From Vairimorpha necatrix (taxonomy: Eukaryota): DNA of 64,000 bases. The translations under genes were made by a program, and so were the position numbers. The notes beneath the pieces were generated by a model. It saw nothing but the letters and a program-made list of their open reading frames with translations, had not been told where the DNA came from and did not search any database. How positions within the stretch are numbered: the stretch's first letter is position 1; each line of letters begins with the position of its first letter. Positions 11,099 to 61,630 of this stretch are shown here, in pieces. Location of the stretch: the NCBI GenBank assembly GCA_036630325.1, contig CP142732.1:806001-870000 (forward strand), in the 5' to 3' direction.

Positions 11099-11641
11099 TT
11101 AATTGTATTTTTCTATTCGTAACCTAATACTTATTTTTTTAGTTAATTTCAGTATTGTTTCTATTTCTTCATAAAAGAAAATATTTATTCCACTTACACC
11201 AATAAAGTAATCGTCAAAATACATATTCCCATCCTGTATACATAACTGATTAATATTCTGCATAAATTTTTTTAAGGACGATTGTATCACAAATATTTTC
11301 CCTTCAAATCTATCTATAGACATTAAAATCTTAGTAATTGAATTTTTAGTAATTTTTTGTGTTGCAAAATCTTCTATCTCTTTTTTTAGTGAAATATTCT
11401 CGTCAAACTGACTTAGAGTTTCATAAAACATACGGTAAGACATTAAAATTATACTTTTATCAGATTCCGAGACATAATTGACTATTTCATCATTATCTTG
11501 TTTTATTCTATTTATTAATAGGCAAATTGAATTTTGTACCATACAAGTAAGATCTTCCAACTTATATAATTCTTTAATTATATTGTATTCAAAACATGAT
11601 GAATCACATAAAATTATGCTAAGAAAGATAAAAAAATTCAT
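11099..11641 (-). CDS. Expanded-family ~180-aa putative secreted protein, paralog 4
   Basis: CCCCA-ATG; MNFFIFLSIILCD; YETLSQFDE and FEGKIFVIQ motifs. Confidence 0.85.
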   Translation of the reverse strand: MNFFIFLSIILCDSSCFEYNIIKELYKLEDLTCMVQNSICLLINRIKQDNDEIVNYVSESDKSIILMSYRMFYETLSQFDENISLKKEIEDFATQKITKNSITKILMSIDRFEGKIFVIQSSLKKFMQNINQLCIQDGNMYFDDYFIGVSGINIFFYEEIETILKLTKKISIRLRIEKYN

Positions 11642-13143
11642 TGGGGCATAACTAAAAAAAATTAATTTATATTAAATTTAAATTAATTTTTTTGTTCTTA
11701 AATGAAATTAATAATTTTATGTAAAAATTAGACCGCAATATTAATATAATAAAAAATAATTTTATTCCTTGCCCCAATGAACAAGATTAATGTTTTTTAT
11801 CTTTTTTTGCATGCTATATACATTCAAGAATGTGATTATTTTCTTTGTTTAATTAATGTCATGTGTCATAACGGAAACGACAACTGACTTTTTTGACACC
11901 AAGGGGCTCGAGTTTACATATAAAAAAATTCTTATGCTGTACAATCAATAATACATTTTTAAAATGTAAACGGAAAGCATTAAGATTTTACAATGATATC
12001 TTAATACATTTTTTTGTCTGTTTGCAACTTAATAAATTTTGACATATTTTTTTAGGATCAATCTTGAGTTATTGCGTGATAAAAAATTGATATATACATA
12101 TAAGTGATTTTTATGTGCTTTAATAAGTTTCATAATATTTCCTCATATGCAGATTGGTATTGATTTTTTTGCGAGTGTGAAGCATATTTAAAAATATAAA
12201 CATAATTATTATGGAACTACCATAAATGTATTTGATATTGAATGTCTTTACTATTTGTACTAGTATTATCAAAAAGCAGAGTAAATTATGCTGTTTTTAT
12301 CATCAATTACGATCTGAAGCTATTAATGTCTATAATAGTTTTTTAACGTCGGCATTATCATAAGTCGATTCTTCTCTTATACTGATCTCAGTCGTGAAAA
12401 TTTTTAGTACTCTCATAAGAATAATTGGCAAAACTATTTTATAAAATTAGGCGTTGTAATTTTTTGTTAGAAAGATGTTAACCTATACAATATAAGTTAT
12501 CACGTATTAATTTACAATGTATACATTCATGTAATATTTTTAGTAGATTGTTTAATATATTCTATTTTCTGACCCTTCAGATAGAATAAAATATACCTTA
12601 GTATTTTTATATTATATACATTAAGCATGATTATCAGTTATATTTAAGTCTTTTTTGTAAACACATTATTTTTACTAATTTGATTATTTTCAATTTGAAT
12701 ATGTTTTTTATAAGGATTCAATTTAAAATGAAAATGTTGTATAATTCAAAATTATAAAAAATTTTAGTTTTATATATATCTTAAAGGTAATTTTATTCGA
12801 AGTTACAGCCATTTTATTAACTAAAATAAATTCCTTTAAATTATTCATATTAAATGTATGACGCAATATTTAGCTAAAAAATTGTTAGACATTTGAGACG
12901 AGTGATATTTACTACAAAAAAACAAATTTAAAGATAATTTAATGGTTTATTTTTCATATATACAATAAATATCTTTCATTTAAAGAAACAAAATCTAATT
13001 CGACAAACAACAAATAAATTTATTACTTAACAAATTTACTTATTTAAATTTGTATTATATATAAGTTTTAGTGCTTTTTTATTGTAATTACTGAATATAA
13101 ATAATTCAATTTCTATTTATAAAAAAAAATTATTTAATCCCCC

Positions 13144-13685
13144 ATGAATGCTATAATATGTATTAATATAATCTTATGCGATTTATCATTCAATAAAAAA
13201 AATATCATGAATGAGTTAGAAAAATTAAAGAACTTACTTATAAGGTAGAAAATTCAATAAGTCTACTAAAAACTACATTTAGTCAAAATTACAACAAAAT
13301 TAACATATTTACCTCAGAATCAACCAACAAAACTTTTTTAAATGCATTTAATATGCTATATGCTATACTTTGTCAATTTGACTACCAAACATACGCAAGG
13401 AAGCAAATAGATGATTTCGATATAGAAAATATAACAAAAGATTTTATTATTAAAATAATAAGAACTACAGATAGATTAGAGGGTAACATTTTTGCTATTA
13501 AGTTGTCTCATTACAAATTTATGAAAGGGCTAAGAAGATCATATACGAAAAACAGAGATAGATGCGATTACGAATCCTTGCACTTTATAAATGAAATAAA
13601 TAATTTTTTTGTGGAAGAGCTAGAAAAGATTATGATATCTACGAAAAAAATAAGTCTTAATTTACGACTAGAATTGAGAAATTAA
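13144..13685 (+). pseudogene. Expanded-family paralog 5, frameshifted near 13228
   Basis: CCC-ATG at 13144 gives MNAIICINIILCDLSFNKKNIMNELEKLK. A 1-nt deletion then shifts into the frame of ORF 13353-13685 (ELTYKVENSISLLK...LCQFDY...LEGNIFAIK). This could also be a homopolymer sequencing error. Confidence 0.8.
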
Positions 13686-14599
13686 AAAAGCCTTGTCTTA
13701 AATCATTTTCTAGTTTATTTTTGAAATTATCACAATAGCTTTTATCTGTATCAATCTCTATTTTTATGTATAACTAGTTTATTTCAACGTCTTTTATTTT
13801 ATTTATTTTTTTAGATAAGAAATTAAACCAATAGTTTTTGAAAGACGGCGTAAGGTTGACACTGAAAGGCGCGAACATATAGTCTATTGGTGATATATTG
13901 ATCAATAGATGTATTTTAGGATCATAACATCCCATGCATTTGATAAAATAACACAAGGTTAATTTAAACTCCAATGTACAATATAATATTATTGGTATCT
14001 TACTGCTGCTATTGCACTCAATGTTCATACAAGAAAATTCACTTTAATACAAAAGAAAAAAAATGATTTAGAAAAGAGATGATCGGTAGGCAATAATCAT
14101 TCGTTTTATTCATAGATATGTGTCTTTAATAGTTTCAAATTAAAACTATCCAAAAACACATACATTATTATTGATTTTATTAGCATTTCAAAGCTTGAAT
14201 TAAAAAACGAGATAAAATTCAAATCTCTAGATAAGTATTGATATGTTTGATTTGTAATTATAGCTTTAGTTTTCGGTTTTAGCAGTAAAAAAATCATCAC
14301 AAAAAAAGAGAATTACATAGATTTAGGAAAATATATTAAACACAAAAAATAAAAAATCAAGGCATATTATAAATATAACGCTGTTTTGGTTCAGACATGT
14401 ACAAAAACGTAAAATTATCGCGAGTTTTAATGTCTTATACTTAAAGGGAAAAAAAACAATGTCAAAAAGCAAACATTATCTTAGATTGTTTCTTCTAAAC
14501 GCTAGCTTTTTTTTTTAATTTCTATGAGCCTTAAATTATGATGCCAATTATTTTTTAATTTAGAGTATACTCTCAATATAATTGTATTTCATTAAGTCT

Positions 14600-15780
14600 C
14601 ATGATGCGGGCAAAGAAATAGGAGATAGGGTTCTCCTTATATGTTAATATTATTTGATATAAAACTTTATTGGTGCTTTTTCGAAAATGTCGCTACACCA
14701 TAGTCATTTTGTAGTTATCCTCTGTTATATATATTCTACTTGTTTTACTTTGATCCACGTCGATAATTATTGATTATTACCTATTTAACTTTGTTTCCGT
14801 AGATTTTTCTTGCGTTGTGTTGGGAAGGAGGTTTCGTGTACAGTTTTTTTCATAAATATTGTTTATTACAATGTATTTATATGTTATTTTGTGCATTTAA
14901 GCAGATACAACACAAATCACCCATATTTATTAATTCAGTTCTAATCATATTTCTTCGATCAATATATTTGCCAAATTAAAAATTAAAACCTACATCTAGA
15001 CATTTTTCGTCTAAAAGTCTCTTTCCCTTCTCATATTTTCCATATACATCTTTCAGGTAGTTTTAGTACTTCTTGATTTTTGTAATCTCTTCTGACTCTT
15101 TATTAATAGAATTTTTAAAGACTACTTGAATATAAATTATCCTGAGAAGCTAGTTTCGTTCGATAACACGCATTTAATGTTCTCTATTTTTTTTTCTTAG
15201 TTTGTTTGCCATATGTTCTTTAATTTGGAATTTGTAAAAACCTTTCGCCAACTCGCGCACTTTTTAATTTTCGTTTAGGGATTATATATATTTGCGTAAT
15301 GGCTTCGTGATAGGGTCCGAATCCCATCTTCTGATGTAATTACTACAGTTTGACTTAAAATTTAGATAATTTAATAATTGGTTGTTGTGTAGTTATTTAA
15401 AGACGATGTATATTTTTTTATTTTTGTTATCGGAATGACTTCAATGTTTATAATATCTCTCCAGAGTTTTCTTTACAATCGAACTATTCATCATCAAATA
15501 TCCTCTTTTTATGATCTCTGTTTAATAATTCTTTAGATTATGATTGTCTTTGCGTATTTCTTAAGTAATTTTTTGTTTTTAGATATTCTGACCTTAAATT
15601 GCGCTGTCTAATCACATATAAGTTTTTTGTCCATAATATGGTATTTGTAAATGGTTTGATCGCACGTTCATTGTATCTTCCGAAATTGATTGACATCTCT
15701 TATTTTTTAAAATATGCAATGCTGTATGTTTATTTATCTGCTCACTTTATATGAATATGATGTAATCTCCTTGTTCTATG
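14600..15780 (-). mobile_element. Possible highly decayed LTR-retrotransposon (RNase H/integrase) remnant
   Basis: Coding-like composition on the minus strand with only faint fragments (HTALHIL, LHQKMG); no clean motif. Confidence 0.25.
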
Positions 15781-16425
15781 CGTCAAAACCTTGCTTCTAA
15801 ATGTCATTGCATGGATTAATTTGATAAATATGTAATTTTTGTAATGCATTTCGATTAAATGCGATGTAAACGTTAAACCTTTGCAATTGACTTATAATTG
15901 TTTATTATACATTTATATAATTAATTTTTGCTTTTTCTTTTTTTTTTGGGGGGAAAGGGGGGTATAAATAATTTTTTTGTTGTTAATACACAAAAACTGA
16001 ATGTCAATCTCTAGAACTCCGAAGACAATCAATAAAGGCAAATAGTTATAAAAAATGTTGTTCGGCTTTTGTAAATGCTTTATTGTTTATTATGACAAAA
16101 TAAGTTATTTGCAATATATTGTAAAATGGAAAGTTGACTAAAATTTTCAAACAGACACATTCTATGCTATAAATAATTTTTCTTTTGTTGTATACTAAAG
16201 GCAAAATTTCTTAGTTCTTAATCAATTTTTTTTACCAGCAGATTAATATCAGCAAAAATATTTTGTTTTCAATTTGACCATATATATTATTAGATAAACC
16301 AAAATCACTTCATTCTACTATGTAAAATATCAATTTAAATATGACAAGATACATAATTTTTTTCTTTTAGTGTCACTTAGGGTATTTCAAAATTAATAAA
16401 TTAATATAATAATTTTTTAGCCCCA

Positions 16426-16965
16426 ATGAATGTTTTAATCTTTCTAAATACTATTTTCTGCAGTTCGCTGTTTTTTGAAAACAGTATAATAAACGAATAT
16501 GATAGTTTGAGAGGAAGGGCTATACAATTAGAAAATTTAATAGTACTAATAAGAGACGAAATTAGAGAAGAAATGCCCCAAATGCTGGAATATTTAACAG
16601 AATCAAGGAACGAAAAGATTTTGATGGCATTTATCAAGTATAATGAATCACTTTGTTTATGCAATGTTGGATTTCTTTTGGACCAAAAGTTCAATGATTT
16701 CATAAAAGAAAATCCAACAAAAGATTCGTTTTATAAAATAAAAGTGGCTTTAGAAAGACTTTCAGATTTTTTTTTTGCATTTAAGTCATCACATAATTAT
16801 TTTATGAAAATTGTTTGTTATGATTATAAGGAAAATGAAAACAAACACTTTGATAACCGCTTAAGAACTATAAATGGAATTTACCAATATTTCAGAGAAG
16901 AATTAGAAGAAGCACTAAAAAAAATTGAAGAAATGAAGATTGAAATTAATATAAAGATTGAATAA
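16426..16965 (+). CDS. Expanded-family ~180-aa putative secreted protein, paralog 6 (divergent)
   Basis: CCCCA-ATG; MNVLIFLNTIFC; ESRNEKILMAF.KYNESLC and FFAFKSS motifs shared with the family. Confidence 0.8.
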   Translation: MNVLIFLNTIFCSSLFFENSIINEYDSLRGRAIQLENLIVLIRDEIREEMPQMLEYLTESRNEKILMAFIKYNESLCLCNVGFLLDQKFNDFIKENPTKDSFYKIKVALERLSDFFFAFKSSHNYFMKIVCYDYKENENKHFDNRLRTINGIYQYFREELEEALKKIEEMKIEINIKIE

Positions 16966-46773: not shown

Positions 46774-49540
46774 TCAACTAATTTGAGAAGTATCCCGTTT
46801 TATATGACATTTGTTTACCCTTAATTCTCCGTTGTTATCGGTTCTTTCTACCATATATGCATCTTCGCTGATTATTTCGGATATCTTATAACCGTGTGTC
46901 CATTTGGAACTTAATTTATCTTTGCCTGGGATATCTCTAAAAATGATCACGCGTTCCCCGATATTAAATTTTGTTTTTACGTCTTTATGTCCCTTGACTA
47001 TTCTTTTTTTGTATTTAATGAAATTTTTATCTCTCTTTTCTACGAGGTATTGTTTTGAATACATTTTCGGCTTGATATTCAATCTCTTATCTATTTCTGT
47101 CATTAGTTGATGTCCATGCTTCATTATGTATGGAGATGTTCCTATTGCGCGATTGAATGACAAATTAACCGCTAGTGTTGCTTCCTTTAAAAAAGGACTC
47201 CAATTTAATTCTCCAAAGCAAGACAACCGTCTTATTACGTTTTTTAGAGTCTGGTTTACTCTTTCCACTGCTCCTGTTGTTTGGTGATGGTATGGGGACC
47301 CAAATTCCCACTTGATATTGTATTTATTTTGAAGTGATAGCACTTCTTTATTGTTGAACTCTAACCCGTTGTCCGTCAAAATTCTATCAGGAATTCCATG
47401 TTTTTTTATAATTAGTTCTTCGATAGCTTTGTATATTTCGTGCCCTGTTTTATTTTTGATTATTTTTGTTTCAATCCATTTCGTGTAATGATCTATCGCT
47501 ACGAAAACATATTTTGAACCCGAGATTTCATACATTCTACCCATTAAATCGATTTCTCACACTTCGTTTGGCTTATCTGCGCAGATTACCTTATTTTTTG
47601 TTTTAACCTTTGGTCCTCCTGCTCTTAGACAGATACTACATTTTGAGCTAATTTTCTATATCCTTATACATTCCTTTCCAATTGTAGTTTCGGGAAATCA
47701 TAAACTTCATTGTGTTAACTGACCCATGTCCAGAAATCCTATGATATTCTGTTATTATGTCCTCTTTATCTTTGTTGTCCAGTTCTTCGGCGTTAATGTT
47801 ATTTATTTCTTCACTATTATAAAACCTACTAAATCCATCGGCAATGTTGTTTCCCCCTTTTTTATGTTCCAATTCAAAGTCGTATTCTGCGAGTTTTAAG
47901 GACCACCTGAGCAGCCTACTAGAAGGGTCTTTTGTGCTCATTAAGTATATGAGAGCTTTGTGGTCCGTTCTATGTTTAAACTTCCTTCCTAATAAGTAAT
48001 GTCTAAAGTGGTTAATCCCTTTAACCAAGGCTAGTAATTCTTTATCCGTCACTGAATAATTTTTTTGACAATTATCTAATCTTTTCTAAACGCGGATATC
48101 ATTTTCTCTTCTCCATGATCATTCTCCTGGAGTAACACTGCACCAATACCCGAGTCCGATGCATCTGTCAAAAATATAAAGTCCTTTTTAAAGTTCGGTT
48201 GAGTTCGTACAGTATTTTTTTCCATTTGGCGTTTAGTTCTATTAAAAGCAGCCAATTGATCTTCCGTAAGTGTGATTTTTTTACTTGAGTTTTGTCTCTC
48301 CCCTCTAAGTATGTCATATAATGGACTAGTGCGATTCTATCTCCTTCACGAAGTCTTTACAATAATTAACTGTTCCCAAGAAACCTCTGAGCTCTTTAAT
48401 AGACGTGGGAATTGGGTACGTTTGAATGTGACTAATTTTCTCTGGGTCTACTTTAATGCATCCATTCCCAATAATATTTCCTAATATTTTGATTTCATTC
48501 TTGTAGAATTTACATTTTTTTAAGTTTAATGATAGTCCTGAGGCTCTTATTTTTCCTAATACTATTTTTACATGTACGTTGTGTTCCGCTTTCATTCTAG
48601 AGTATATTATAATGTCATCTAGGTATGGTATTAAGAATTTTCTGTTTTCCATTCTAAAAATATTGTCCATGGCTCTCTGGAAAGGGGCAGGAGCATTGCA
48701 TAGTCCGAAGGGCATTCTGTTGTATTCATAAAGCCTTCCTTTAAATGAGAACGCTGTCTTCTCTTTATCTTCTTCTTCCAAGAGCAATTGTTGGAATCCA
48801 CACGTAGCGTCTAACAAAGTGAAAATCGATGCCCCTGCAACACGGTCAAAAATCTCGTCGATCCTTGGAGACATATATGAATCCTTAATAGTGATTGCAT
48901 TTAATCCTCTGTAATCTATGCACATCCTCCAAGTTTTGTCTGGCTTCGGGACCATTACTATCCTGCTACACCATGGGCTTTTACTATCCCTTATTATTCC
49001 TAACTTTAACAATTTATTTATTTCGGTTTCTATTATTTCCTCTTGTGCAATAGGTATCCTGCCATTTCTCTGACAGATTATCTTATTACTATTTGTTTGC
49101 ACGCTATGTTTTCCTGCAGTACAAAGATTAAATTCGCTTATCTCCGTTTTAAATAAATCCTTATATTCTTCCTTAATAAGAGTCTCATTCTCCTCTATAA
49201 CGGTTACGACTTGTTTTTCATGTCCCAATTTAAATGTTCTGATTAATTCGATAATTAACTCTGTGTTTTTTTTGATAACCTCTGACCCTAAAATTATATA
49301 TTTTGTATTTTTCATTATAAGAGGAGAAAACGTAATATCTCTACCATTTATCTTTACAACACAGTTTTTTATTTGGCCTATTATGTTTAATGGTTGACTT
49401 CCCGCGCCTTTAACGATTCCCGAGTAATTTAATATCTGTTTATGTAAATGTGATGGTACGTCTTTTTGGTCTATTATCGAGACGTCTGCTCCCGTGTCTA
49501 AAAGAATTTTCCTTTTATTATTATATAGAGTACCTACGAG
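46774..49540 (-). pseudogene. pol: pol (protease-RT-RNase H-integrase), broken by frameshifts and a stop
   Basis: LLDTGA protease (~49480-49495), RT MPFGLCNAP and YLDDII, RNase H LTDAS...NYSVTDKELLA...TDHKAL, integrase H-H-C-C, EIDL, TDNG, AVERVN. Frame breaks near 48340, 48086 and 47648; TGA at 47557-47559. Confidence 0.9.
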
Positions 49541-50424
49541 AAAAATGGGTTACTTTGGTCTATGACCCCAAACAAGTAATTAAAACTGTCTTTATTGTCC
49601 AAATCGTAATTATCTTTTTCAATTTGTTCCTCATTAGTGTTAACCTTCTTCGTCGAAATTCTTTTACGTTCATTTTCCAACATTTCAGTGAGTCTCAAAC
49701 ATTCCTTTGTGTAATGAGATCCTTCCCCATGTAACATGCAATATTTGCGGTTGTTTAGTGAACTGCCGTAATTTCCGCTGTTATTTGGCCCTCTGCCGTA
49801 ATTTCCCTTGTTATTTGGCCCTCTGCCAAAATCATTATTGTTGTATAGCCCTCTGCCATAATTTCCATTATTTTTTATAGTTCTATCTGGTCTTACTTCG
49901 ACCCTTGATAAAATTTTATCTGGATATGGTATCCATGCCATTTCTTCAGCTCTCTGAATGAAATCTTCCCATGTTTCCACATTTGAAGCTGCCTGGAATA
50001 GTATCGCTTTAATTTCTATGGGCGATTTGTTTATTACCATCTGACATAAAGCTGGAAAGTTAATTAAGTGTCTTTCAAATATAATTGTTGCTTCATACAA
50101 CATCTTTGAATATTCCTCCCTGGTCTCAGGCGTGGGTCTTTCCAAAAATCTGCTAAGAGTAATATCATTATTTTTATTAGATCCAAATCTTTTTTTCATC
50201 ATAGAAATCAGTTCTTGTAGTCCAATGGTGCCAATTTTCCCTCCTATAACTTGTGAAACCCAAGACAAAGCCGTTCCTTTCATCTTCCATACAAAAGCCT
50301 TCACCAGATCTTTTTCAGACCATTCTGCCACTTCACCCAAGATCATCATATCTCTTATCCAGATATTTATATCCTCTTCTGGTTCCCCTGCGAAATAGTT
50401 AACGTTGTTGGTCGTTGTCGCCAT
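49534..50424 (-). CDS. gag: Gag
   Basis: FAGEPEEDINIWI...WKMKGTALSW capsid-like region, GNYGRGPNN repeats, and a CX2HX4HX4C knuckle (CMLHGEGSHYTKEC). The frame is open further upstream into the LTR (to 50499). Confidence 0.85.
   Translation of the reverse strand: MATTTNNVNYFAGEPEEDINIWIRDMMILGEVAEWSEKDLVKAFVWKMKGTALSWVSQVIGGKIGTIGLQELISMMKKRFGSNKNNDITLSRFLERPTPETREEYSKMLYEATIIFERHLINFPALCQMVINKSPIEIKAILFQAASNVETWEDFIQRAEEMAWIPYPDKILSRVEVRPDRTIKNNGNYGRGLYNNNDFGRGPNNKGNYGRGPNNSGNYGSSLNNRKYCMLHGEGSHYTKECLRLTEMLENERKRISTKKVNTNEEQIEKDNYDLDNKDSFNYLFGVIDQSNPFFS
50411..50423 (-). promoter_or_regulatory. Primer-binding site (TGGCGACAACGAC), probably tRNA-Ser
   Basis: TGG directly follows the 5' LTR; complementary to the ...GUUGUCGCCA 3' end seen in some eukaryotic tRNA-Ser (from recall, unverified for this host). 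Confidence 0.6.
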
Positions 50425-50547
50425 GTCGTTAAATCGTTTATTAATATTTTCCATCCCCTCTTTCCAGCATGAATTTATATAGTTTAATTGACCAATCATC
50501 TTGCAACAATTGTATCATATTTTGTGGCCCCTGTACTGGCCACGACA
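50424..50547 (-). repeat. 5' LTR
   Basis: Identical to 46645-46768. Confidence 0.95.
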
Positions 50548-53743: not shown

Positions 53744-54448
53744 TTATTTTTCACATTCATTAATCAAATCCTTAAAATATTTCTTCTCTACCAATATTTC
53801 TATATTAATATGATCGATTATTTTAATCATCTGATGGTCAATAAACTCACTCAAAAAATTAAAAACAAGATTTTTCTTAAAAATCATTAATTTTTTTTTT
53901 ATTTTATCAAACAAATTATTTACAGATACATTTGTATTATCAAATTCCAATAAATTTTTAAATGTAAATTTACTATTTTTTGATCCATTTCTTATTACAT
54001 TTAAATATCCTTCTTTTTTATCTTCTTTAATTTCTGTAAATTCTACATCATAGTCTTCGTAAGTCGTCAAGTCGCGCATTACGAGATTTAAATCTTCAAA
54101 TTTTTGATAATTTAGTTCTTTGTTCATTTTTTCAAATGTAAAAATTAGTCTAAAATTTGTTTTTTTAAAATATGAGGAATATTTAAAGTCGAAGTCTATT
54201 AGAATCAGAATGAGGTTACTAGAGAAATCTGATAAGTTTTTATGATTTTTTTTTAATTTTTTGTTTAGTTCGAAGATAATGTCAGATATTTTGTAAAAAT
54301 TCATATCAAACTGGAATGCGCTAGGGAACATTTTAGCGAGAATATTTTTTTTAGATCCAAATCCGAAGTAAAGAATGTTGAAATTTTTTAATAAGTCTGT
54401 GTGTTCTTTTTTACAAGACAAATGGAATTTGAGAAGTTTCTGAGGCAT
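53744..54448 (-). CDS. ORC2: Origin recognition complex subunit 2 (reduced)
   Basis: FNILYFGFGSKK..L, DLTTY..Y..E and LSEFIDHQMI motifs typical of ORC2. Confidence 0.75.
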   Translation of the reverse strand: MPQKLLKFHLSCKKEHTDLLKNFNILYFGFGSKKNILAKMFPSAFQFDMNFYKISDIIFELNKKLKKNHKNLSDFSSNLILILIDFDFKYSSYFKKTNFRLIFTFEKMNKELNYQKFEDLNLVMRDLTTYEDYDVEFTEIKEDKKEGYLNVIRNGSKNSKFTFKNLLEFDNTNVSVNNLFDKIKKKLMIFKKNLVFNFLSEFIDHQMIKIIDHINIEILVEKKYFKDLINECEK

Positions 54449-54659: not shown

Positions 54660-56540
54660 TTAAAATTTTTTTATCTTTAAATTTTCATTAACTTCCAATA
54701 TCTCATTCATTATAAGCCTATACTTCATTAATATCCAATCTTCATCTTTCTGATACAAATACGGTATCCCAAACACTTCTTTCTCCCTCTCTATTTTTTT
54801 TATTATCTCCCTTTGATTTTTATTAAATTTTTTCTTACTATGCCTTAAATTAAAAACTATTCTATCTCGTATACCTCTACTCATACATTTATATCTCATT
54901 ACATACATACTATAATCTTCATACTCGTATTTATAATGTAAAGTTATATTACTTTTCCGATTAGTTATAAGAAAAAACGACTTGTTCCCATTTTCATGAA
55001 TATCTAAGGTTTCGACATTATAAATGTCCAGTAATTTGCCATTTAAATTTAGTATTAGAATATAATCAGCTATTAATATTAATTTGTACTTGTCACTTGT
55101 TATTTCATCAATATAAAGATCTTTGACGTCATATAAGTCGTATTTTATACATAATTCCCATGTCTTTTCTTTTTTAAATTGGATATCTGTCAAATTATCG
55201 CACAATAAGACGAATTTTCTGATTTTTATTAGAAAAAATTTCAAGGGTAAATACCCCAATGAGTCGGGGTGGGTGTATGATAATATTTTAGATAATAAAG
55301 CGTTATATTTTGTTAATCTTTGTGTCATGATATTGAATGTGTCTCTTAATAAATCGATGTTAAAATTTTTTATCTTACAATTTTTTAAAATGCTTTCTGA
55401 AAAAATTGAAAAATTTTTAAAAGAGTAAAAATATTCCAAATTTTTATATAAAATTGTAGATAGTTTTTCTGTGAGATCATTTTCGTCATTTACGAAAATG
55501 ATTTTATTTTCTTTATATTCGTCTAATTTTAAAGTGAGGTCTGCATTTGAAGTGAGATCTAAATTTGAAGTGAGATCTGCATTTGAAGTTTCATTAAATT
55601 TATAAGTGTCTTGGTCAAATTTAAAATCTAAATTTTTATATTCATCGAAATTTGAACTATATTCTTGATTTTTGTCTGGTTTAAAAATGTCTTGTAATGT
55701 ATAATCCACTTTTTTATATTTAAACATATTAAATGTATTTACTAGATCACTTACAAATCTTTTAGACAAAAAATATAATTTTTCAAAATCTTTAAAATAT
55801 TCATTAAATTTGTAAATTTCAAGTTTTTCTTTTTGTATCAAAATCCCGTTATAATACATTTTGTTCATAATTATTAAAACTTCCAATTCTGTAGATATAA
55901 GTTCATGAATTACAGTACTTAAGCCATTTTCTATATTTTTATAATTAATTCCCAAATTTTCTAAATCTTCAGAAGTGACATTTAGTTCGTCGAAATGTTT
56001 TACATCTTCGATTTTCTCGTTTTTTAGTTCTATTTCTAAGAAATCTCTGAGTATAAAATTTTCTATTTCTTCAGCGTAGAAATAGTTTAATTCTGAGATT
56101 CTGTTTTTTAGATTTTCTATCTTAAACTTGTTTATATTTGATAAGACGAATGTTTTGATTAAATTGTTAAGTGGTTGTCTTGTTCTATTAGAAGTTAATG
56201 ATACGATATTAGAAGTTAAAAAAGAGAAGACATTATCAAAGAGAGTAGATCTAGTATTAAGTTGGAGATCCCAGTTGTTTATAAAATGCCTGAAATATTT
56301 ATCAAATGACATAAATAATATTTGTTCTTCTTTTAGTTGTGAGTTTGTGTATTCAAATTCTAATAAGCCCAAAATTGATCTGCAGTAAACAAAAGTGGTA
56401 TTTTCTTTAGAAATTAAAGAAATACAAATAGAGCCAAATTCCTCAATGTAAGTTATAAAACTTCTAGAGGAGTGATATTTCTTAGGGAACATGTCAATAT
56501 AATAAGAAAAGTCTTCATCTATAATATTTTCACCACCCAT
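54660..56540 (-). CDS. Dbl-homology (RhoGEF) domain protein
   Basis: VIHELISTE and QRLTKYNALLSKILSYT DH motifs, followed by a possible PH region; internal TSNADL x3 repeat. Confidence 0.7.
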   Translation of the reverse strand: MGGENIIDEDFSYYIDMFPKKYHSSRSFITYIEEFGSICISLISKENTTFVYCRSILGLLEFEYTNSQLKEEQILFMSFDKYFRHFINNWDLQLNTRSTLFDNVFSFLTSNIVSLTSNRTRQPLNNLIKTFVLSNINKFKIENLKNRISELNYFYAEEIENFILRDFLEIELKNEKIEDVKHFDELNVTSEDLENLGINYKNIENGLSTVIHELISTELEVLIIMNKMYYNGILIQKEKLEIYKFNEYFKDFEKLYFLSKRFVSDLVNTFNMFKYKKVDYTLQDIFKPDKNQEYSSNFDEYKNLDFKFDQDTYKFNETSNADLTSNLDLTSNADLTLKLDEYKENKIIFVNDENDLTEKLSTILYKNLEYFYSFKNFSIFSESILKNCKIKNFNIDLLRDTFNIMTQRLTKYNALLSKILSYTHPDSLGYLPLKFFLIKIRKFVLLCDNLTDIQFKKEKTWELCIKYDLYDVKDLYIDEITSDKYKLILIADYILILNLNGKLLDIYNVETLDIHENGNKSFFLITNRKSNITLHYKYEYEDYSMYVMRYKCMSRGIRDRIVFNLRHSKKKFNKNQREIIKKIEREKEVFGIPYLYQKDEDWILMKYRLIMNEILEVNENLKIKKF

Positions 56541-56677: not shown

Positions 56678-59600
56678 TTAATGTCGTATCTTTATGTTGT
56701 AAAAATCTAATTTAGTTTTAAATTTGTTAGTTAAATCTTCATTATTCAGTTTGCTGAGAATTTTCTCGATTTCTCTAACATAACTTCTCTTTTTAAATAT
56801 TCCTCCACATTCACAATATTCTGTTAATTTTCTTTCATTTATTCTACCACATTTCTCGCAGAATAATTCGTCACTTAGTTCTAAATTGAGATAATGTCTG
56901 AAATATTTCTCTACTACTTCGTACACTTCTTCTCTCACAAATCTGTACATGCATTTTATACAGCGAGATCTCATGACATTTTCCAAGTTACACTTTCTGC
57001 AAATTATCAACATTTCTATATTTTCCTCATTCTTAGAATATTCATCTATTTTTAGAAGTTTCTTACAATTAGAAATGACATTATACATTTCAGGCTTAAA
57101 TCTCAAAGATATTAAAATTAGATCTGCGACTTCTCTGTCTACACTAGTCACTAAATTGTAAATATATTCACCAGTGAAATTATCTTCAGTGAAATATTTC
57201 CTAATAAATTCGGCCGGGACTTTTAAGTCACTAGTGCAAAATTGATCCTGATTTTTCATATAGAAGAAATTATTTGGGTCAATAAATAGTAATTTATCAA
57301 AATGTCTTGATTTTCTAAAGACTAAATTTCTGTATCCCTTTTTCTTACTTATGATCTTTTTACAATATTCAAATATCTTCTCTGCTGATTCACTGGTGTC
57401 TTTTTCTGTCTCAATACAGAAGATATTGGCACTTACATAAATAATATTCATCTTTAGATCATTGAAAAATGATATTAAATTGAAAATATATCTCTGGTGT
57501 AGTAGATTAATTAAATCTTTAAGACTAGTAGACAGAAATGAGGACTCCTTACGAATCCACTTCTCAATTCTATTTAAAATTAAATTACTGCCTGGAATAG
57601 ACATTTTATAATCTTTAAAGATCTTATTTACCATGTTAAATAAAACTTTGAAATCTGGTCTAAAATCTAATCTATCTGATTCATCAAATAAAACTTCATT
57701 TTCTAAAATTGACAAGATCAGAGACCCAACACACTCAAATTGTATTGAGTGGTGTTTATAAAATCTAGGATTGACCTTTTCATTCTTAAAAAGCCTGTGT
57801 GACTCGGGCCCGCCTTCAGAGACCAAAGCATTAAAATCTACAGAGGATTTATAATAAAGATAATCAAGAAAAGGAATATCATTATTACAGACAGGAATAC
57901 CTAAATAAGAACAAATACTACTCTTAGTCTCAAATGTCATTTTAAGTTCTCTGTGTAAATTCTTCTGAATCTCTAAGAGCTCTGGGAAACTACAGAGTCT
58001 CTTTTTAATTTGTATCTTCTCAGAATTGTACACATAAGAAAGGCATACTTTCTTAAGATCTTCATAATTCTTATCATTTCCATTTAGTAAAATTAGGCAA
58101 TCAACATTCTTTAAAATGAAATTTTGTAAATTTATATTTTCTACTAAGGAATGTTTAAAATTCGAAATAAAAGTAAATTTCTCATTTTTACTAAATGCAA
58201 AAATTATAAATTTCCCGAAATTGAAACTCGTCAAAATGACGAAATTTGGATTTCTGGAAATTTCATATTTATCAAATTCAGATTGGAAAATAGAAGGCAC
58301 ATTAAAATTATAAATTTCTGAGATATTGGGATTATTGACTAATTTAAGATAATAATCTGAAGAAGATGTAGAAATATAAGAAATCTTCTCTAAATTTTTA
58401 CTCTCTGGTAAATATTTCTCAGTAAATTTGACCTTATTTTCTATACAAAATATCTTATTTGCTTTAAAATAGATCTTCATTTCAATTAATTTAGATATAG
58501 AATTAAATATTTGGTTTACTTCTGATTGCTTGACTTCTATTTCTGGTTTTAATAGTGACTTGCCTTTAACAGGTTTATTTTCTACTGGATTATTTATTTT
58601 ATTGTAAAAATAAAATATATAATTTTTATCTGATTTTACAATCTTAAGTATTCCATTCTGTTCTTTTATTTTTTTACTTTCAGTAGTGATTTCTGGTTTA
58701 TTAGAATCTTGTGTCTTTTTCTTGACTACGAAATAATCAAGTAAATCTGATTTAGTGCTCTGTTTTATTGCAGGTTTTTGTATTTTAATTTCTGGTAGTG
58801 GATTCTCAATCTTCTGGTCCAATGCAGGCAAAATGATCATCTTCGACAAATAATCTTTTATGATTTTACTGTAATAATCCCAATCAATGAGATCTCGGAT
58901 TTCTAAAGACGGGGCGAATTGAGTCCATTTTTTCAAAAAGAAATCCGCTTCTTTAGATTTATAAATTAAAGAAGGGATTCTTCTATTTGACAGTGGTTCA
59001 TTTGTAGGGAAAACAGATACGAAATATTTGACTACTACATCTTCAAAATATTTAAAATCTTCAATATTCTTAAATTCGGCTAATTTCTTTGTTAATTTGC
59101 TATTATTTTCTACTTCTTTAGTCTCACTGAACATTTCTAATATTTCGTCATCACTTAAGGCCTGACATTTAGATTCTAGTAATTTAAGCCAATATCTACA
59201 GACACTGGCCAATTTATCATAACAATCTTGTAATGTATTCCCTTGTGTATATTCCTCGAATAATTCGTCCTGTATTCTTTTTAGTATTTCTAAATTATTA
59301 TATTCTTTAAGATCAAGTTTGTTCTCTCCCATGGAATCATCAAAGTTTATAATTAGATATTTCTTTTTGGACTTGTCTAACCCAAAAGGAATAATCATGC
59401 CATTATAAGGACCATTAATATTATAAAAACTATCAATATTATGTTTCTTACTGTTCATATGATTTAAGTATAAATTTAGAAAATTGATTTTCAGGTTTCC
59501 GACTAGAATTTCAGATGGAAATATCTCAGGTACTAAAATCCAGATCCCTTCTGGATTTATTTCTAAAATAGTGGATATTTTATCTAAGACTTCTTTACAC

Positions 59601-61630
59601 TCTTGTATGATTTTATCTGCTAAATTAGAAACAACAGACGACATTTCAGGCGAGCTCCATCTTGCATTTCTAAATGTCAAATATGAGTAAAATGATTTTA
59701 AAATATTTGTTAGATTATCTTTTTCTCGTATCTTTCTGATTGATTCTATAAAAAATGGAATTGCTCTTTGACAAATGTTGACGACTCTGTTTTCTTCTGC
59801 TTGATTAGCGTCTTCATTTTGATATCTTTTGGATGGGTGTGGATCTTGATTATACTCTTTTATAGTACGCTGTTCTATTTCATTAAAATTATCTATCTCG
59901 ATTTTCTTGTTACATTTAGACCTCTCTGGGAAATAGTCACATCTTATACAAATATCATCATTAACGAGAGACACGGGCTGAAGATTATTAGTCAGAATAA
60001 TATCAGAATATAACATCTTAAAATCTATATGGTAGATATTCCCTTTACATACACTATACTTGCGAATATTCATTAATTTGGTCTTAATTTCCTTCTTTAT
60101 CAAAGAGATGTCTGAATCAGAAATATTTACTAATATGTCGTCTAATGATTCAGATATATTCTTAAGTTCTTGTTCATTTAAAATAAATTGATACTCAAAA
60201 TCCGACCTGAAAATGCCCGATTTCAAACATTCAAAAGAATTTGTCACAAAGTCTATGGCTTTATCCTCGTGTATTTCTTTTATCTTTTTATTTGGTATCA
60301 AGAAAGAATGTTGAAATGCCTCAATAATTAAAAGAGCTTCACATAAAACTTCTGGTTTTTTAGTCAGTGCTTTTATAGGCGTGTATGGAATAAGAGAACT
60401 CAGACAGAATATTTGAGGCTGAACATATTTGACAGATAAATAAAAAGTAGCGACTACATCTTCTACAAAATCAGATAGCATTTTCTCATTGAGCATATCT
60501 TCAGATTCTATTTCATACTCAAGTTTCATTTTAGTAATTGACTTTAAATCATGACTTACTTCAGACAGTGTGTCGTCTTTTATGGCCCATTTATGGCAAT
60601 CAAAATGCAGAATAAATGGACATGTGTAATATTCTCGCTCTCGAGTAAATCCCGTCATATTTGTCAAATTAATTTTGTGCTTAATCATTCGTGTTTCTAA
60701 GTATGAAAAATCAAATGTATTTCCTCGGAAAGTCGAGACAATGTGCGGCTTGTAGATTTGGAATAATTCTAAAAATTTAAGAATTAATTCTTCCTCTGAA
60801 TCCATATTGTAAGAAGTAAATTGACAACATAATTCCTCTGTTGGCTCATACTCGAATGTCCCAATATCTTGTAATATTATTGATCTATTAATTATTAACA
60901 TGTTAGCTGTGTCTGTTTTTATAGCAATAGAGACTATTTCGTCATTACTTGAATCTGGATATTTGTCATGTGTCTTAATATCAAAGGCAAATACTCGCAA
61001 ATCTGGTGTTTCGGTTTTTTGACTTAAATTTATGTTGTATTCTTCTCCATTATAAGAATACTCATACCATTTCCCTGCTCTTACTTTGTAAGTATCTGAT
61101 ATTATGATCTCGGGCGGGATATCATACTCATAAATATTTAGTAAATATTCTACTATATTATTCTCTTCTTCTTTTTTATATTTCATCATGTCTTTGTACA
61201 CACTCTCGATTTTCTTATTATTTCTATTATTTAATATTGCCTTCTTGATATCTTTTAGTAATCTGTCAAATGTATTTTTATATTTGTAATTGATCTTTAA
61301 TAATTTCTTCTTTTCTTTATTTAGATAATTATATTCTGTAGAATCATATTTTTCTACAATATTACTACTTACATATCCTTCTGGATATTGATTCTTTATA
61401 TATTCCTCTACGTCTGTCTGATTTATACATTCTATTAACATAGAATAATAGAAAGGGACAGTAATGTAGAAATTCCTTAAATCTTTAGTGACGAAATATA
61501 TTCTTACATAAGATGAGGAATCTTCATTTATGACATGATCAAAATTGAAGATGTATCCTTCAATAATCTCTTGTAGGAGATATTCCTGAAATTTAAATTG
61601 TGTTTCTAGTTCTTCGATAATTTCTCTCAT
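56678..61630 (-). CDS. POL2: DNA polymerase epsilon catalytic-subunit homolog with degenerate active sites
   Basis: IYEYDIP, RAGKWY, LRVFAFDI, SGIFRSD, TNNLQP, C..CD....C/ICQR, IRDLIDWDYY, ILPALDQKIENPLP, and C-terminal CysA/CysB (CRKC..CIKC, CEKC..CECGG). Confidence 0.92.
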   Translation of the reverse strand: MREIIEELETQFKFQEYLLQEIIEGYIFNFDHVINEDSSSYVRIYFVTKDLRNFYITVPFYYSMLIECINQTDVEEYIKNQYPEGYVSSNIVEKYDSTEYNYLNKEKKKLLKINYKYKNTFDRLLKDIKKAILNNRNNKKIESVYKDMMKYKKEEENNIVEYLLNIYEYDIPPEIIISDTYKVRAGKWYEYSYNGEEYNINLSQKTETPDLRVFAFDIKTHDKYPDSSNDEIVSIAIKTDTANMLIINRSIILQDIGTFEYEPTEELCCQFTSYNMDSEEELILKFLELFQIYKPHIVSTFRGNTFDFSYLETRMIKHKINLTNMTGFTREREYYTCPFILHFDCHKWAIKDDTLSEVSHDLKSITKMKLEYEIESEDMLNEKMLSDFVEDVVATFYLSVKYVQPQIFCLSSLIPYTPIKALTKKPEVLCEALLIIEAFQHSFLIPNKKIKEIHEDKAIDFVTNSFECLKSGIFRSDFEYQFILNEQELKNISESLDDILVNISDSDISLIKKEIKTKLMNIRKYSVCKGNIYHIDFKMLYSDIILTNNLQPVSLVNDDICIRCDYFPERSKCNKKIEIDNFNEIEQRTIKEYNQDPHPSKRYQNEDANQAEENRVVNICQRAIPFFIESIRKIREKDNLTNILKSFYSYLTFRNARWSSPEMSSVVSNLADKIIQECKEVLDKISTILEINPEGIWILVPEIFPSEILVGNLKINFLNLYLNHMNSKKHNIDSFYNINGPYNGMIIPFGLDKSKKKYLIINFDDSMGENKLDLKEYNNLEILKRIQDELFEEYTQGNTLQDCYDKLASVCRYWLKLLESKCQALSDDEILEMFSETKEVENNSKLTKKLAEFKNIEDFKYFEDVVVKYFVSVFPTNEPLSNRRIPSLIYKSKEADFFLKKWTQFAPSLEIRDLIDWDYYSKIIKDYLSKMIILPALDQKIENPLPEIKIQKPAIKQSTKSDLLDYFVVKKKTQDSNKPEITTESKKIKEQNGILKIVKSDKNYIFYFYNKINNPVENKPVKGKSLLKPEIEVKQSEVNQIFNSISKLIEMKIYFKANKIFCIENKVKFTEKYLPESKNLEKISYISTSSSDYYLKLVNNPNISEIYNFNVPSIFQSEFDKYEISRNPNFVILTSFNFGKFIIFAFSKNEKFTFISNFKHSLVENINLQNFILKNVDCLILLNGNDKNYEDLKKVCLSYVYNSEKIQIKKRLCSFPELLEIQKNLHRELKMTFETKSSICSYLGIPVCNNDIPFLDYLYYKSSVDFNALVSEGGPESHRLFKNEKVNPRFYKHHSIQFECVGSLILSILENEVLFDESDRLDFRPDFKVLFNMVNKIFKDYKMSIPGSNLILNRIEKWIRKESSFLSTSLKDLINLLHQRYIFNLISFFNDLKMNIIYVSANIFCIETEKDTSESAEKIFEYCKKIISKKKGYRNLVFRKSRHFDKLLFIDPNNFFYMKNQDQFCTSDLKVPAEFIRKYFTEDNFTGEYIYNLVTSVDREVADLILISLRFKPEMYNVISNCKKLLKIDEYSKNEENIEMLIICRKCNLENVMRSRCIKCMYRFVREEVYEVVEKYFRHYLNLELSDELFCEKCGRINERKLTEYCECGGIFKKRSYVREIEKILSKLNNEDLTNKFKTKLDFYNIKIRH

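What the first reader, a model, noticed from the sequence alone, without database searches (positions are those of the whole stretch)
56678..61630. Intact but apparently catalytically dead DNA polymerase epsilon
Seen: an uninterrupted 1650-aa Pol2 ORF in a core-gene cluster. Polymerase motif C reads ILEINPEGIW (codons 59549-59557) instead of LELDTDGIW. Motif B reads LTNILKSFYSY instead of HKVILNSFYGY (conserved K and N lost). Motif A reads YHIDFKMLYSD instead of YHVDVASMYPN. ExoI reads FDIKT instead of FDIET (60974-60982), ExoII N is replaced by R, and the ExoIII Y is missing. The CysX-type cluster and both C-terminal Cys4 motifs are kept. Known: yeast Pol2 needs D875/D877 for polymerisation and D290/E292 for proofreading; its catalytic half can be deleted while the C-terminal half is essential for CMG assembly. 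Inference: either this lineage replicates with a purely structural Pol epsilon and Pol delta on both strands, or this is a neofunctionalised dead paralog beside an active copy.
Basis: partly seen in the sequence, partly recalled or inferred. Interest (0 to 1): 0.92.

Follow-up and report, generated by a model that had tools for sequence, protein, structure and literature searches.

The report
Catalytically dead DNA polymerase epsilon
A microsporidian parasite related to the honeybee pathogen Vairimorpha ceranae keeps a full-length DNA polymerase epsilon gene whose copying and proofreading centres are destroyed, so the protein probably serves only as a replication scaffold while another polymerase copies both strands.

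Summary
Window 56678..61630 (-) is an intact 1650-aa POL2/POLE orthologue. Motif C reads NPE instead of DTD. About 35-40 residues of the fingers, including the motif B lysine, are deleted. The segment between the third and fourth CysX cysteines is halved. ExoI E, ExoII N and ExoIII Y are replaced. Of 200 columns invariant in 17 other POL2, it departs at 80; controls depart at 0-12.

It is not a pseudogene. The frame is open (chance 1e-68). Contigs from two other runs carry the same deletions, and a crude dN/dS is about 0.15-0.19 in both halves. The C-terminal half evolves at the normal rate, while the N-terminal half is about 5-fold accelerated.

It is not unique. A 1758-aa POL2 with 92 member sequences, linked by contig to V. 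ceranae, is its sister and is dead too (NSE). V. bombi POL2 is intact.

No second, active POL2 appeared in the protein searches. The whole genome could not be searched.

Best reading (0.65): the sole Pol epsilon is kept as a scaffold and Pol delta does the bulk synthesis. I found gene loss of Pol epsilon in print, but not this dead-yet-retained state.

The parts
56678..61630 (-). Whole POL2 (DNA polymerase epsilon catalytic subunit) ORF, 1650 aa plus stop
   Evidence: Probability of an open frame by composition is 1e-68; the other five frames have longest open runs of 39-89 codons.
58781..61630 (-). N-terminal exonuclease-polymerase module (residues 1-950). The fold is predicted to be kept and the active sites are degenerate. 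It is 950 residues against 1026-1202 in 19 other POL2.
   Evidence: AF2 with a 46-row alignment gives pLDDT 82.4. Foldseek TMq is 0.80-0.83 to Pol epsilon catalytic cores.
60974..60982 (-). ExoI D217-I-K219 (canonical D-I-E): the Glu is replaced by Lys and the Asp is kept
   Evidence: 18 of 19 others have D..E
60710..60727 (-). ExoII R302-G-N-T-F-D307 (canonical N-G-x-x-F-D): Asn is replaced by Arg and the Asp is kept
   Evidence: 19 of 19 others have N. A contig of run X2 keeps Arg by a synonymous CGA->AGA change.
60458..60472 (-). ExoIII D387-F-V-E-D391 (canonical Y-S-V-S-D): the Tyr is lost and the Asp is kept
   Evidence: 18 of 19 others have Y..D
60002..60034 (-). Motif A Y533-HIDFKMLYS-D543 (canonical YHLDVGAMYPN): the catalytic Asp D536 and Tyr541 are kept, and the flanking invariant residues are changed
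59771..59950 (-). CysX Fe-S motif C561, C564, C573 ... C620. All four Cys are kept, but the segment between the third and fourth is 48 residues against 61-101 elsewhere (in yeast/human Pol epsilon this segment belongs to the P domain: recalled, not mapped here).
   Evidence: X1 contig 59679-59941 covers it with no gaps and 1 synonymous difference.
59681..59707 (-). Fingers deletion junction (N642|I643) and the motif B remnant ILKSFYSY. The first fingers helix and the motif B Lys are missing, N->K and G->S.
   Evidence: F626->S646 is 21 residues against 50-62. The X1 contig spans it without gaps.
59540..59569 (-). Motif C ILEINPEGIW (canonical LELDTDGIW): D->N692, T->P693, D->E694 (equivalent to human D860/D862 by the alignment)
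   Evidence: 17 of 19 others have DTD. Not covered by the laid contigs.
59291..59368 (-). Degenerate palm/thumb motifs KKKY ... NK-LDLKEYNNL (canonical KKRY ... KGFExKRRGEL)
   Evidence: 18 of 19 others have KGFE. Five of the 8 nonsynonymous N-half differences seen in X1/X2 lie at residues 746-774.
56678..58780 (-). C-terminal non-catalytic half (residues 951-1650), evolving at the same rate as in V. bombi and V. ceranae-like POL2
   Evidence: terminal branches 0.52, 0.57, 0.55. DUF1744 hit at residues 1323-1455.
56807..57001 (-). Two C-terminal Cys4 motifs (C1544, C1547, C1557, C1560; C1591, C1594, C1606, C1608). In other eukaryotes this region is the Dpb2-binding CTD.
   Evidence: (zf-DPOE 1.6e-5)

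Best explanation
This is the orthologous POL2 of a Vairimorpha-clade microsporidian and, as far as the searches reach, its only one. Its N-terminal exonuclease-polymerase module has lost canonical polymerase and proofreading activity. The protein as a whole is kept under purifying selection.

Shown:
- The catalytic and substrate-binding motifs are replaced or deleted.
- The C-terminal half and its Cys motifs are conserved at the normal rate.
- The N-half fold, as far as a family-driven model can show, and the four Fe-S cysteines are retained.
- The same state occurs in the sister V. ceranae-like lineage, with shared substitutions D692N, D694E, N543D and M540L. Relaxation therefore began before the two lineages split.

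Inferred:
- The protein works as the non-catalytic scaffold known from yeast and human replisomes, through Dpb2 binding by the CTD and assembly and stabilisation of the CMG helicase.
- Bulk leading-strand synthesis falls to Pol delta, as in yeast pol2-16 and pol2-delta-cat.
- The deletions in the fingers, the CysX segment and the thumb motifs may keep the dead module from occupying primer ends. In yeast, that occupation is what makes catalytic point mutants toxic.
For: Motif losses.

Excess of departures at invariant columns: 63 against 0-9; 80 of 200 against 0-12 in 17 leave-one-out controls.

Deletions.

PF00136 is present in V. bombi POL2 (2e-12) but absent at E<=0.1 in the window protein, P0152 and the N. 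granulosis protein.

Selection:
- The frame is open, P=1e-68.
- Crude dN/dS is (8/1118)/(12/248)=0.15 in the N-half and (9/1284)/(11/292)=0.19 in the C-half, from 40 of 43 differences in contigs of two other runs.
- Those contigs carry the fingers deletion, the shortened CysX segment and R302.

Domain-specific rates:
- N-half branches: V. bombi 0.20, shared stem 0.28, window 0.75, V. ceranae-like 1.22.
- C-half branches: 0.57, 0.17, 0.52, 0.55.
- Window versus V. ceranae-like identity is 37% in the N-half and 44% in the C-half, whereas active pairs run about 50% and 25%.

Orthology:
- Congruent Ski2, POL2 and C-half trees.
- POL2 and Ski2 share a contig length in N. granulosis (97,857) and V. 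ceranae-like (44,562), and share a contig in V. bombi.

No active second copy:
- The best hits to V. bombi POL2 outside its own cluster are 45% identical or less over full length, and 49% or less locally.
- The only Vairimorpha/Nosema-clade rows I could identify among the 120 listed are V. bombi, N. granulosis, the window protein, P0152 and unnamed P0150, which groups with N. granulosis; most other unnamed rows were not placed.
- 5 of 5 window proteins are in that collection.

Fold.

Yeast precedent:
- Pol delta makes both strands in pol2-16 (abstract and section heading).
- Catalytic point mutants inhibit by displacing Pol delta, while delta-cat is viable (abstract and section 9).
Against: - The genome of the window's organism could not be searched. 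An unannotated, fragmented or unassembled active POL2 is therefore not excluded. Searches saw only proteins of about 900-3000 aa that share words with the query. One search shows one representative per 50% cluster, so an active copy could hide behind the V. bombi representative.
- D536 (motif A) and E694 (the motif C second position) remain in both dead lineages. Some PolBs polymerise without the first motif C Asp (passage in PMC7544198). Residual or altered catalysis is therefore not formally excluded.
- Motif C, motif A and ExoI were not covered by independent contigs.
- In V. bombi, the POL2 and Ski2 locus tags are 104 apart, against about 30 kb in the window. Positional orthology with the active V. 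bombi gene is not shown, because the synteny test failed.
- The AF2 model leans on an alignment of mostly active homologues, so it says little about whether this sequence folds.
- The dN/dS rests on 40 differences in low-depth contigs.
- Presence and integrity of Pol delta and Dpb2 in this organism were not tested.
Confidence: 0.65

Rival explanations
1. A dead paralogue beside an active copy: the organism has a second POL2 with an intact catalytic centre elsewhere, and this gene is a redundant or neofunctionalised duplicate.
For: The own genome could not be searched. V. bombi, a close relative, has a fully intact POL2, and its locus tag lies 104 genes from Ski2, whereas the window gene lies about 30 kb from Ski2. 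would hide a copy more than 50% identical to V. bombi's behind that representative.
Against: -, with V. bombi POL2 as query against 90% clusters of 5.8 billion proteins, lists no hit above 45% full-length or 49% local identity outside its own cluster. An active Vairimorpha orthologue should exceed the 53% N-half identity that V. bombi shares with the more distant lgn150.
- V. ceranae-like sequences are heavily sampled (92 and 67 members), yet only the dead form appears.
- The gene tree matches the Ski2 tree, including on the C-half alone.
- The C-half evolves at the ordinary rate, which is not expected of a redundant copy.
Confidence: 0.12
2. An altered but still active enzyme: D536 and E694, with the retained exonuclease Asps, still bind metal. 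The module would then catalyse a reduced or different nucleotidyl-transfer or nuclease reaction.
For: D536, E694, D217, D307 and D391 are kept. D536 and the N..E form of motif C are shared by the window protein and P0152. The N-half is under purifying selection. Primer-independent PolBs work without the first motif C Asp (passage).
Against: The first fingers helix and the motif B Lys are deleted, and motif B Asn and Gly are replaced. The CysX segment is halved and the thumb KGFExKRRGEL motif is lost. 80 of 200 otherwise invariant columns are changed. PF00136 is no longer detectable. In P0152 the ExoI Asp and the ExoIII motif are also gone, so no common exonuclease site survives.
Confidence: 0.08
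3. A decaying pseudogene or an assembly artefact.
For: Many catalytic residues are lost, and no run on record as RNA holds the stretch.
Against: The frame is open over 1650 codons where about 149 stops are expected. All changes are in-frame. Contigs from two other runs, 95-99% identical, reproduce two deletions and R302 with no indels. Synonymous differences exceed nonsynonymous ones per site about 5-7 fold. The sister lineage keeps a 1758-aa ORF in most of its members: 13 of the 15 listed, out of 92, are full length.
Confidence: 0.03

Closest known systems
Yeast pol2-16 and pol2-delta-cat (engineered removal of the Pol2 catalytic half) and the catalytic point mutants pol2-D640A and pol2-DD875,877AA
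   Same: Pol epsilon has no polymerase or exonuclease activity, while the C-terminal half that the replisome needs is retained. Pol delta then synthesises both strands (Garbacz 2018, abstract; Devbhandari and Remus 2019, abstract and section 9).
   Different: The case here is natural, fixed and apparently old: it is shared by two lineages whose Ski2 proteins are 74% identical. The dead module is kept and still constrained rather than deleted. In yeast the point mutants are lethal and pol2-16 is very sick.
Complete loss of Pol epsilon with Dpb2 in Glugeida microsporidia, Glomeraceae fungi and Entamoeba
   Same: These are reduced intracellular eukaryotes living without Pol epsilon catalysis (Dallaire 2025 preprint, abstract, section 6 and passages; Kazlauskas 2020, passages).
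   Different: Those reports score gene presence or absence, or loss of the C-terminal half. Here the gene and its C-terminal half are kept and only the catalytic centres are gone. A presence/absence survey would score this lineage as Pol epsilon-positive.
The inactivated C-terminal PolB module of Pol epsilon itself, and other inactivated PolB domains (the Pol alpha and Pol zeta exonuclease domains, archaeal B2)
   Same: A family B polymerase fold is retained for structural roles after loss of active-site residues (passages in PMC7544198).
   Different: Those inactivations are ancient and universal within their families. This one is a recent, lineage-specific inactivation of the module that is the active replicase everywhere else.

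Membership tests
Pol epsilon catalytic subunit (Pol2/POLE), by homology and orthology | Two-module architecture: an N-terminal exo-pol PolB with the Pol2-specific thumb, a C-terminal inactive PolB (DUF1744) and a CTD zinc-finger region | tested here: met
   Pfam POL2_thumb 2.9e-34, DNA_pol_B_exo1 1.1e-24, DUF1744 9.5e-16, zf-DPOE 1.6e-5. Human POLE 2e-119.
Pol epsilon catalytic subunit (Pol2/POLE), by homology and orthology | Groups with POL2 of related species in the position expected from the species tree | tested here: met
   (V. bombi,(window, V. ceranae-like)) in the POL2 tree (SH-aLRT 100), the C-half tree (97) and the Ski2 tree (88).
Pol epsilon catalytic subunit (Pol2/POLE), by homology and orthology | CysX four-cysteine Fe-S motif in the polymerase module | tested here: met
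   C561, C564, C573 and C620 are invariant in 15, 20 and 46 sequences. Cluster binding itself is not testable here.
Pol epsilon catalytic subunit (Pol2/POLE), by homology and orthology | Full-length insertion between the third and fourth CysX cysteines (part of the P domain in solved Pol epsilon cores; that assignment is recalled) | tested here: not met
   Cys3->Cys4 is 48 residues against 61-101 in 19 others. The model has pLDDT below 50 at residues 582-612.
Active family B replicative DNA polymerase | Motif C DTD | tested here: not met
   NPE at 692-694. DTD is present in 14 of 14 and 17 of 19 others.
Active family B replicative DNA polymerase | Motif B K..N..YG on an intact two-helix fingers domain | tested here: not met
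   The Lys and the first helix are deleted, N->K and G->S. F626->S646 is 21 residues against 50-62.
Active family B replicative DNA polymerase | Motif A catalytic Asp and steric-gate Tyr | tested here: met
   D536 and Y541 are kept. The flanking V, G/A, M, P and N are changed.
Active family B replicative DNA polymerase | Detectable match to the Pfam DNA_pol_B (PF00136) profile | tested here: not met
   No hit at E<=0.01. V. bombi POL2 hits at 2e-12.
Active family B replicative DNA polymerase | DNA synthesis in vitro | not testable with these tools
Proofreading 3'-5' exonuclease (DEDDy) of PolB | ExoI D-x-E, ExoII N-x(2-3)-F-D, ExoIII Y-x(3)-D | tested here: not met
   D-I-K, R-G-N-T-F-D and D-F-V-E-D. 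The Glu, Asn and Tyr are replaced and the three Asps are kept.
Non-catalytic replisome scaffold (Pol2 C-terminal half binding Dpb2 and CMG) | CysA and CysB motifs conserved, and the C-half under normal constraint | tested here: met
   Eight Cys are kept. C-half branch is 0.52 against 0.57 (V. bombi) and 0.55 (V. ceranae-like).
Non-catalytic replisome scaffold (Pol2 C-terminal half binding Dpb2 and CMG) | Physical binding to Dpb2, GINS and Mcm5 | not tested
   The partner sequences of this organism were not available because the genome is not held.

The most novel reading that the evidence does not exclude
A whole branch of the genus Vairimorpha, comprising the window's organism and the V. ceranae-like lineage, has replicated its chromosomes since before their split with a Pol epsilon that cannot polymerise or proofread. 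The dead module is kept as a selected, folded, Fe-S-cysteine-bearing part of the replisome, and Pol delta acts as the only bulk replicase. This would be a natural, stable counterpart of yeast pol2 catalytic mutants. N. granulosis (DTG, with 16 of 200 invariant columns changed) may show an independent onset, which would mean Pol epsilon catalysis is repeatedly dispensable in Nosematidae.
Probability: 0.55. Interest if true: 0.88.

Novelty: new variant of a known kind. Interest (0 to 1): 0.78.

Why it matters
Which polymerase copies the leading strand, and what the Pol epsilon catalytic half does beyond synthesis, are long-running questions. So far they have been studied mostly with sick, suppressor-prone yeast mutants. 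A lineage in which evolution has fixed a catalytically dead but full-length Pol epsilon would be a natural system for three questions:
- Can Pol delta alone sustain a eukaryotic genome?
- Which non-catalytic surfaces of the N-terminal module are indispensable?
- How is a dead polymerase kept from blocking primer ends?

It also predicts loss of leading-strand proofreading, with consequences for mutation rate and spectrum in AT-rich microsporidian genomes.

There is a practical side. The sister sequence appears to belong to the honeybee pathogen V. ceranae. Its 'epsilon DNA polymerase' is already being used as an RNAi target and is listed among 'DNA replication enzymes' (PMC12609917, passages). 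Presence/absence surveys of replisome genes would miss this state.

Tried and rejected
- Own-genome search for a second POL2: no genome is held.
- Synteny test with V. bombi-type contigs by the search for related loci: the machine gave no answer three times, so positional orthology with the active V. bombi gene is open.
- The search of protein representatives with the full 1650 aa: over the size limit. It was re-sent as the first 1000 residues.
- Single-sequence AlphaFold: pLDDT 32, unusable.
- Sequencing runs: no RNA holder is listed, so nothing can be said on expression. The laid contigs of X1 and X2 did not cover motif C, motif A or ExoI.
- Pseudogene or artefact reading: rejected.
- KKRY->KKKY as a sign of inactivation: dropped, because the otherwise canonical Spraguea POL2 also reads KKKY.
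- A PIP box could not be recognised in the microsporidian alignment after residue 930. The idea that PCNA binding was lost is therefore untested.
- The 626-aa neighbour (54660..56540) is not a recognisable Dpb2: no Pfam family at E<=0.1, and no PDB match better than E 0.03.
- Literature searches gave no description of a catalytically dead but retained Pol epsilon in microsporidia. Supplements of Kazlauskas 2020 (Table S8) and Dallaire 2025 (Figure S4 image, tables), which list per-species Pol epsilon states, could not be seen.
Full report
**What is there.** Window 56678..61630 (minus strand) is one uninterrupted ORF of 1650 codons. Pfam finds the Pol2-specific thumb (2.9e-34), the family B exonuclease domain (1.1e-24), DUF1744 (9.5e-16) and the Pol epsilon zinc-finger domain (1.6e-5). 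It does not find the DNA_pol_B polymerase family PF00136. The best solved relatives are human and yeast Pol epsilon catalytic subunits (2e-119 and 8e-115). The neighbours are housekeeping genes: Rrp4, Rad10, Ski2, a proteasome ATPase, Fcf1, Dim1, an ORC2-like ORF, CK2 beta and Ufd1. From base composition about 149 stops are expected in 1650 codons, so P(open) is 1e-68. The other five frames have longest open runs of 39-89 codons.

**The motifs.** In an alignment with 14 other POL2, 14 of 14 carry the canonical residues at ExoI (D..E), ExoII (N), ExoIII (Y..D), motif A (MYPN), motif B (K..N..G) and motif C (DTD). The window protein reads DIK, RG, DFVED, DFKMLYSD, ILKSFYSY and NPE. By the alignment to the human chain, N692 and E694 correspond to human D860 and D862, and K219 to human E277.

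Three refinements apply:
- The residues before ILKSFYSY are not a mutated 'AHK'. The first fingers helix with the motif B lysine is deleted: F626->S646 is 21 residues against 50-62 in 19 others.
- There are two more in-frame shortenings. The segment between the third and fourth CysX cysteines is 48 residues against 61-101, and W697->P741 is 45 against 59-102.
- The motif A Asp (D536), the steric-gate Tyr, the three exonuclease Asps and a carboxylate at the second motif C position (E694) are kept.

The four CysX cysteines and all eight C-terminal cysteines are kept.

**More than chance.** The window protein departs uniquely at 63 columns that are invariant in the other 14 sequences, all between residues 102 and 1004. 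The other sequences depart at 0-9 such columns. In a second alignment, 200 columns are invariant in 17 POL2 from microsporidia, a chytrid and a beetle. The window protein departs at 80 of them, and leave-one-out controls depart at 0-12.

**It is not decaying and not an artefact.** Two public runs hold parts of the gene as contigs 95-99% identical to the window. One contig (59679-59941) spans the shortened CysX segment and the fingers deletion junction without any gap. Another covers ExoII, where Arg302 is kept through a synonymous CGA->AGA change. No indels were reported. Motif C, motif A and ExoI were not covered.

From the 40 listed differences (3 more were not shown):
- The N-half has 12 synonymous and 8 nonsynonymous changes over 248 and 1118 sites.
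- The C-half has 11 and 9 over 292 and 1284 sites.
- The crude dN/dS is therefore 0.15 and 0.19.

The numbers are small and several contigs have depth below 5. Five of the 8 N-half replacements fall in the degenerate thumb-motif stretch (residues 746-774).

**Where the constraint went.** Between active POL2 of different microsporidian genera, the N-half is about 50% identical and the C-half about 25%. The window protein against the same partners gives 38% and 25%. Separate trees of the two halves show the same pattern:

| Branch | C-half | N-half |
|---|---|---|
| V. bombi | 0.57 | 0.20 |
| Shared stem | 0.17 | 0.28 |
| Window | 0.52 | 0.75 |
| V. ceranae-like | 0.55 | 1.22 |

The C-terminal half therefore evolves at the ordinary rate. 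The N-half is about 5 and 7.5 times faster than in V. bombi, and the acceleration is already visible on the shared stem.

**It is not alone.** Searching with the intact V. bombi POL2 brought up P0152, a 1758-aa protein with 92 member sequences. It also lacks PF00136, and PF03104 as well. It reads FSIIT at ExoI, IVKEV at ExoIII, DIKSLYTD at motif A, EYLYNSFCKY at motif B and NSE at motif C. It departs at 93 of the 200 invariant columns.

The window protein and P0152 both depart at 61 columns, where about 37 would be expected if the departures were independent. They carry the same new residue at 14, including D692N, D694E, N543D and M540L.

One member of the P0152 cluster lies on an ENA contig of 44,562 bases. 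That is the same length as the contig of a Ski2 protein whose 90% cluster contains a named Vairimorpha ceranae entry, so I call P0152 V. ceranae-like.

The window's Ski2 is 74% identical to both the V. ceranae and V. bombi forms and 64-65% to Nosema granulosis. The Ski2 tree (SH-aLRT 88), the POL2 tree (100) and the C-half-only POL2 tree (97) all give (V. bombi,(window, V. ceranae-like)). The simplest history is one relaxation or inactivation in the common ancestor of the window's organism and the V. ceranae-like lineage, after V. bombi branched off. Independent further decay followed: the exonuclease site in both lineages, and the deletions only in the window lineage.

N. granulosis POL2 reads DTG, with motif B N->D and 16 of 200 departures, while its close unnamed relative keeps all motifs. 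Its N-half branch is 0.27 against 0.12, with equal C-half branches. This may be an independent early stage, or in part a sequencing error.

**One copy or two.** The genome is not held, so the direct test could not be run. The indirect evidence is as follows:
- The organism's annotated proteins are in the searched collection: 5 of 5 window proteins were found.
- A word-indexed search with the window protein and an exhaustive HMMER search with its first 1000 residues found nothing closer than the V. bombi cluster (40-47%).
- The search with V. bombi POL2 listed no protein above 45% full-length or 49% local identity outside its own cluster.
- An active orthologue from a Vairimorpha species should exceed the 53% N-half identity that V. 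bombi shares with a Nosema-clade relative.

The limits of this evidence are the length windows of about 900-3000 aa, the word sharing requirement, one representative per 50% cluster, and reliance on annotation. One loose end remains: the V. bombi locus tags of POL2 and Ski2 are 104 apart, while the two genes are about 30 kb apart in the window and share a contig length of 44.6 kb in the V. ceranae-like lineage.

**Fold.** Without an alignment AlphaFold failed (pLDDT 32). With 46 rows, the first 1000 residues gave pLDDT 82.4 and pTM 0.75, with low confidence at 452-464, 582-612 and after 956. Foldseek matched human and yeast Pol epsilon catalytic cores at TMq 0.80-0.83 and E about 1e-74. The sequence is thus compatible with the family fold, but the alignment drives this result.

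**Mechanism proposed.** The shown steps are listed above. The inferred steps are these:
- The C-terminal half with its Cys motifs does what it does in yeast and human. It binds Dpb2 and builds and stabilises the CMG helicase. This is established knowledge of the family, recalled rather than tested here.
- DNA synthesis on the leading strand is done by Pol delta, as ribonucleotide mapping indicates for yeast pol2-16 (Garbacz 2018, abstract and section heading).
- In the reconstituted yeast system, catalytic point mutants of Pol2 are inhibitory because they displace Pol delta from PCNA/primer ends. Deletion of the catalytic domain is tolerated, and PIP-box mutation rescues the point mutants (Devbhandari and Remus 2019, abstract and section 9).
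- The loss of the fingers helix, of half the CysX segment and of the thumb KGFExKRRGEL motif in the window protein would fit a dead module that has been selected not to hold primer ends. This is speculation.
- Why the N-half is still constrained is open. The first 150 residues are its best conserved part within the three Vairimorpha proteins (56-61% identity). Partners known to bind the catalytic half elsewhere, such as Ctf18-1-8 (titles of PDB entries), are candidates.

**What is known.** Kazlauskas 2020 states that all Entamoeba and some Microsporidia lack Pol epsilon or its C-terminal half (passages). Dallaire 2025 (preprint; abstract, section 6 and passages read) reports loss of Pol epsilon with Dpb2 in Glugeida microsporidia and in Glomeraceae. 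Its main text has no occurrence of 'active site' or 'catalytic residue'. A 2025 paper lists V. ceranae epsilon polymerase among 'DNA replication enzymes' used as RNAi targets. It notes that this CDS has the lowest GC of five V. ceranae replication genes (22.8% against 28.9-31.1%) and cites an annotated V. ceranae Pol delta (passages and Table 2). Six searches found no description of a retained but catalytically dead Pol epsilon. The supplements that list per-species states could not be seen.

**Verdict.** The best explanation (0.65) is a sole, scaffold-only Pol epsilon. The main rival (0.12) is an unseen active copy. It is a new variant of a known kind: dispensability and loss of Pol epsilon catalysis are known, but a natural, conserved, catalytically dead full-length Pol2 is, by my searches, not described.

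Noticed in passing
outside the window: protein P0152 (1758 aa, 92 member sequences): A V. ceranae-like POL2 is even more degenerate than the window's. It reads ExoI FSIIT and motif C NSE, has no PF00136 or PF03104 hit, and has 93 of 200 invariant columns changed. It keeps full length.
   Followed up: yes
outside the window: protein P0293, Nosema granulosis POL2: Motif C reads DTG, motif B N->D, motif A P->S. There is no PF00136 hit and 16 of 200 invariant columns are changed. The N-half branch is 0.27 against 0.12 in its close relative P0150, which keeps all motifs. This is possibly an independent early inactivation, or partly error.
   Followed up: partly
window 2543-16965: Six paralogous ORFs of 110-186 aa (28-48% identical, E down to 2e-41). 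Most have hydrophobic N-termini. They are scattered on both strands of a gene-poor 17-kb stretch with 22-27% GC. They look like a lineage-specific expanded small-protein family.
   Followed up: partly
window 46774-50499 (-): Remnants of an LTR-type retroelement in separate ORFs: integrase core (8e-13), reverse transcriptase (1.6e-36) and a weak gag-like ORF.
   Followed up: no
window 54660-56540 (-): A 626-aa ORF lies directly downstream of POL2. It has no Pfam family at E<=0.1 and no PDB sequence match better than E 0.03.
   Followed up: partly
window 53744-54448 (-): A short (234 aa) ORF has only weak ORC2 RecA-like (1e-7 over 30 residues) and ORC2 WHD hits. It is possibly a much reduced Orc2, two genes from POL2.
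   Followed up: no
V. bombi records named: The POL2 and Ski2 locus tags are 104 apart on one 382-kb contig. In the window the two genes are about 30 kb apart, and in the V. ceranae-like lineage they share a contig length of 44.6 kb. Gene order around POL2 may differ in the species that keeps the active enzyme.
   Followed up: no
window 59291-59395 (residues 746-774): Five of the 8 nonsynonymous N-half differences between the window and the X1/X2 contigs cluster in the degenerate thumb-motif stretch. This suggests it is the least constrained part of the dead module.
   Followed up: partly
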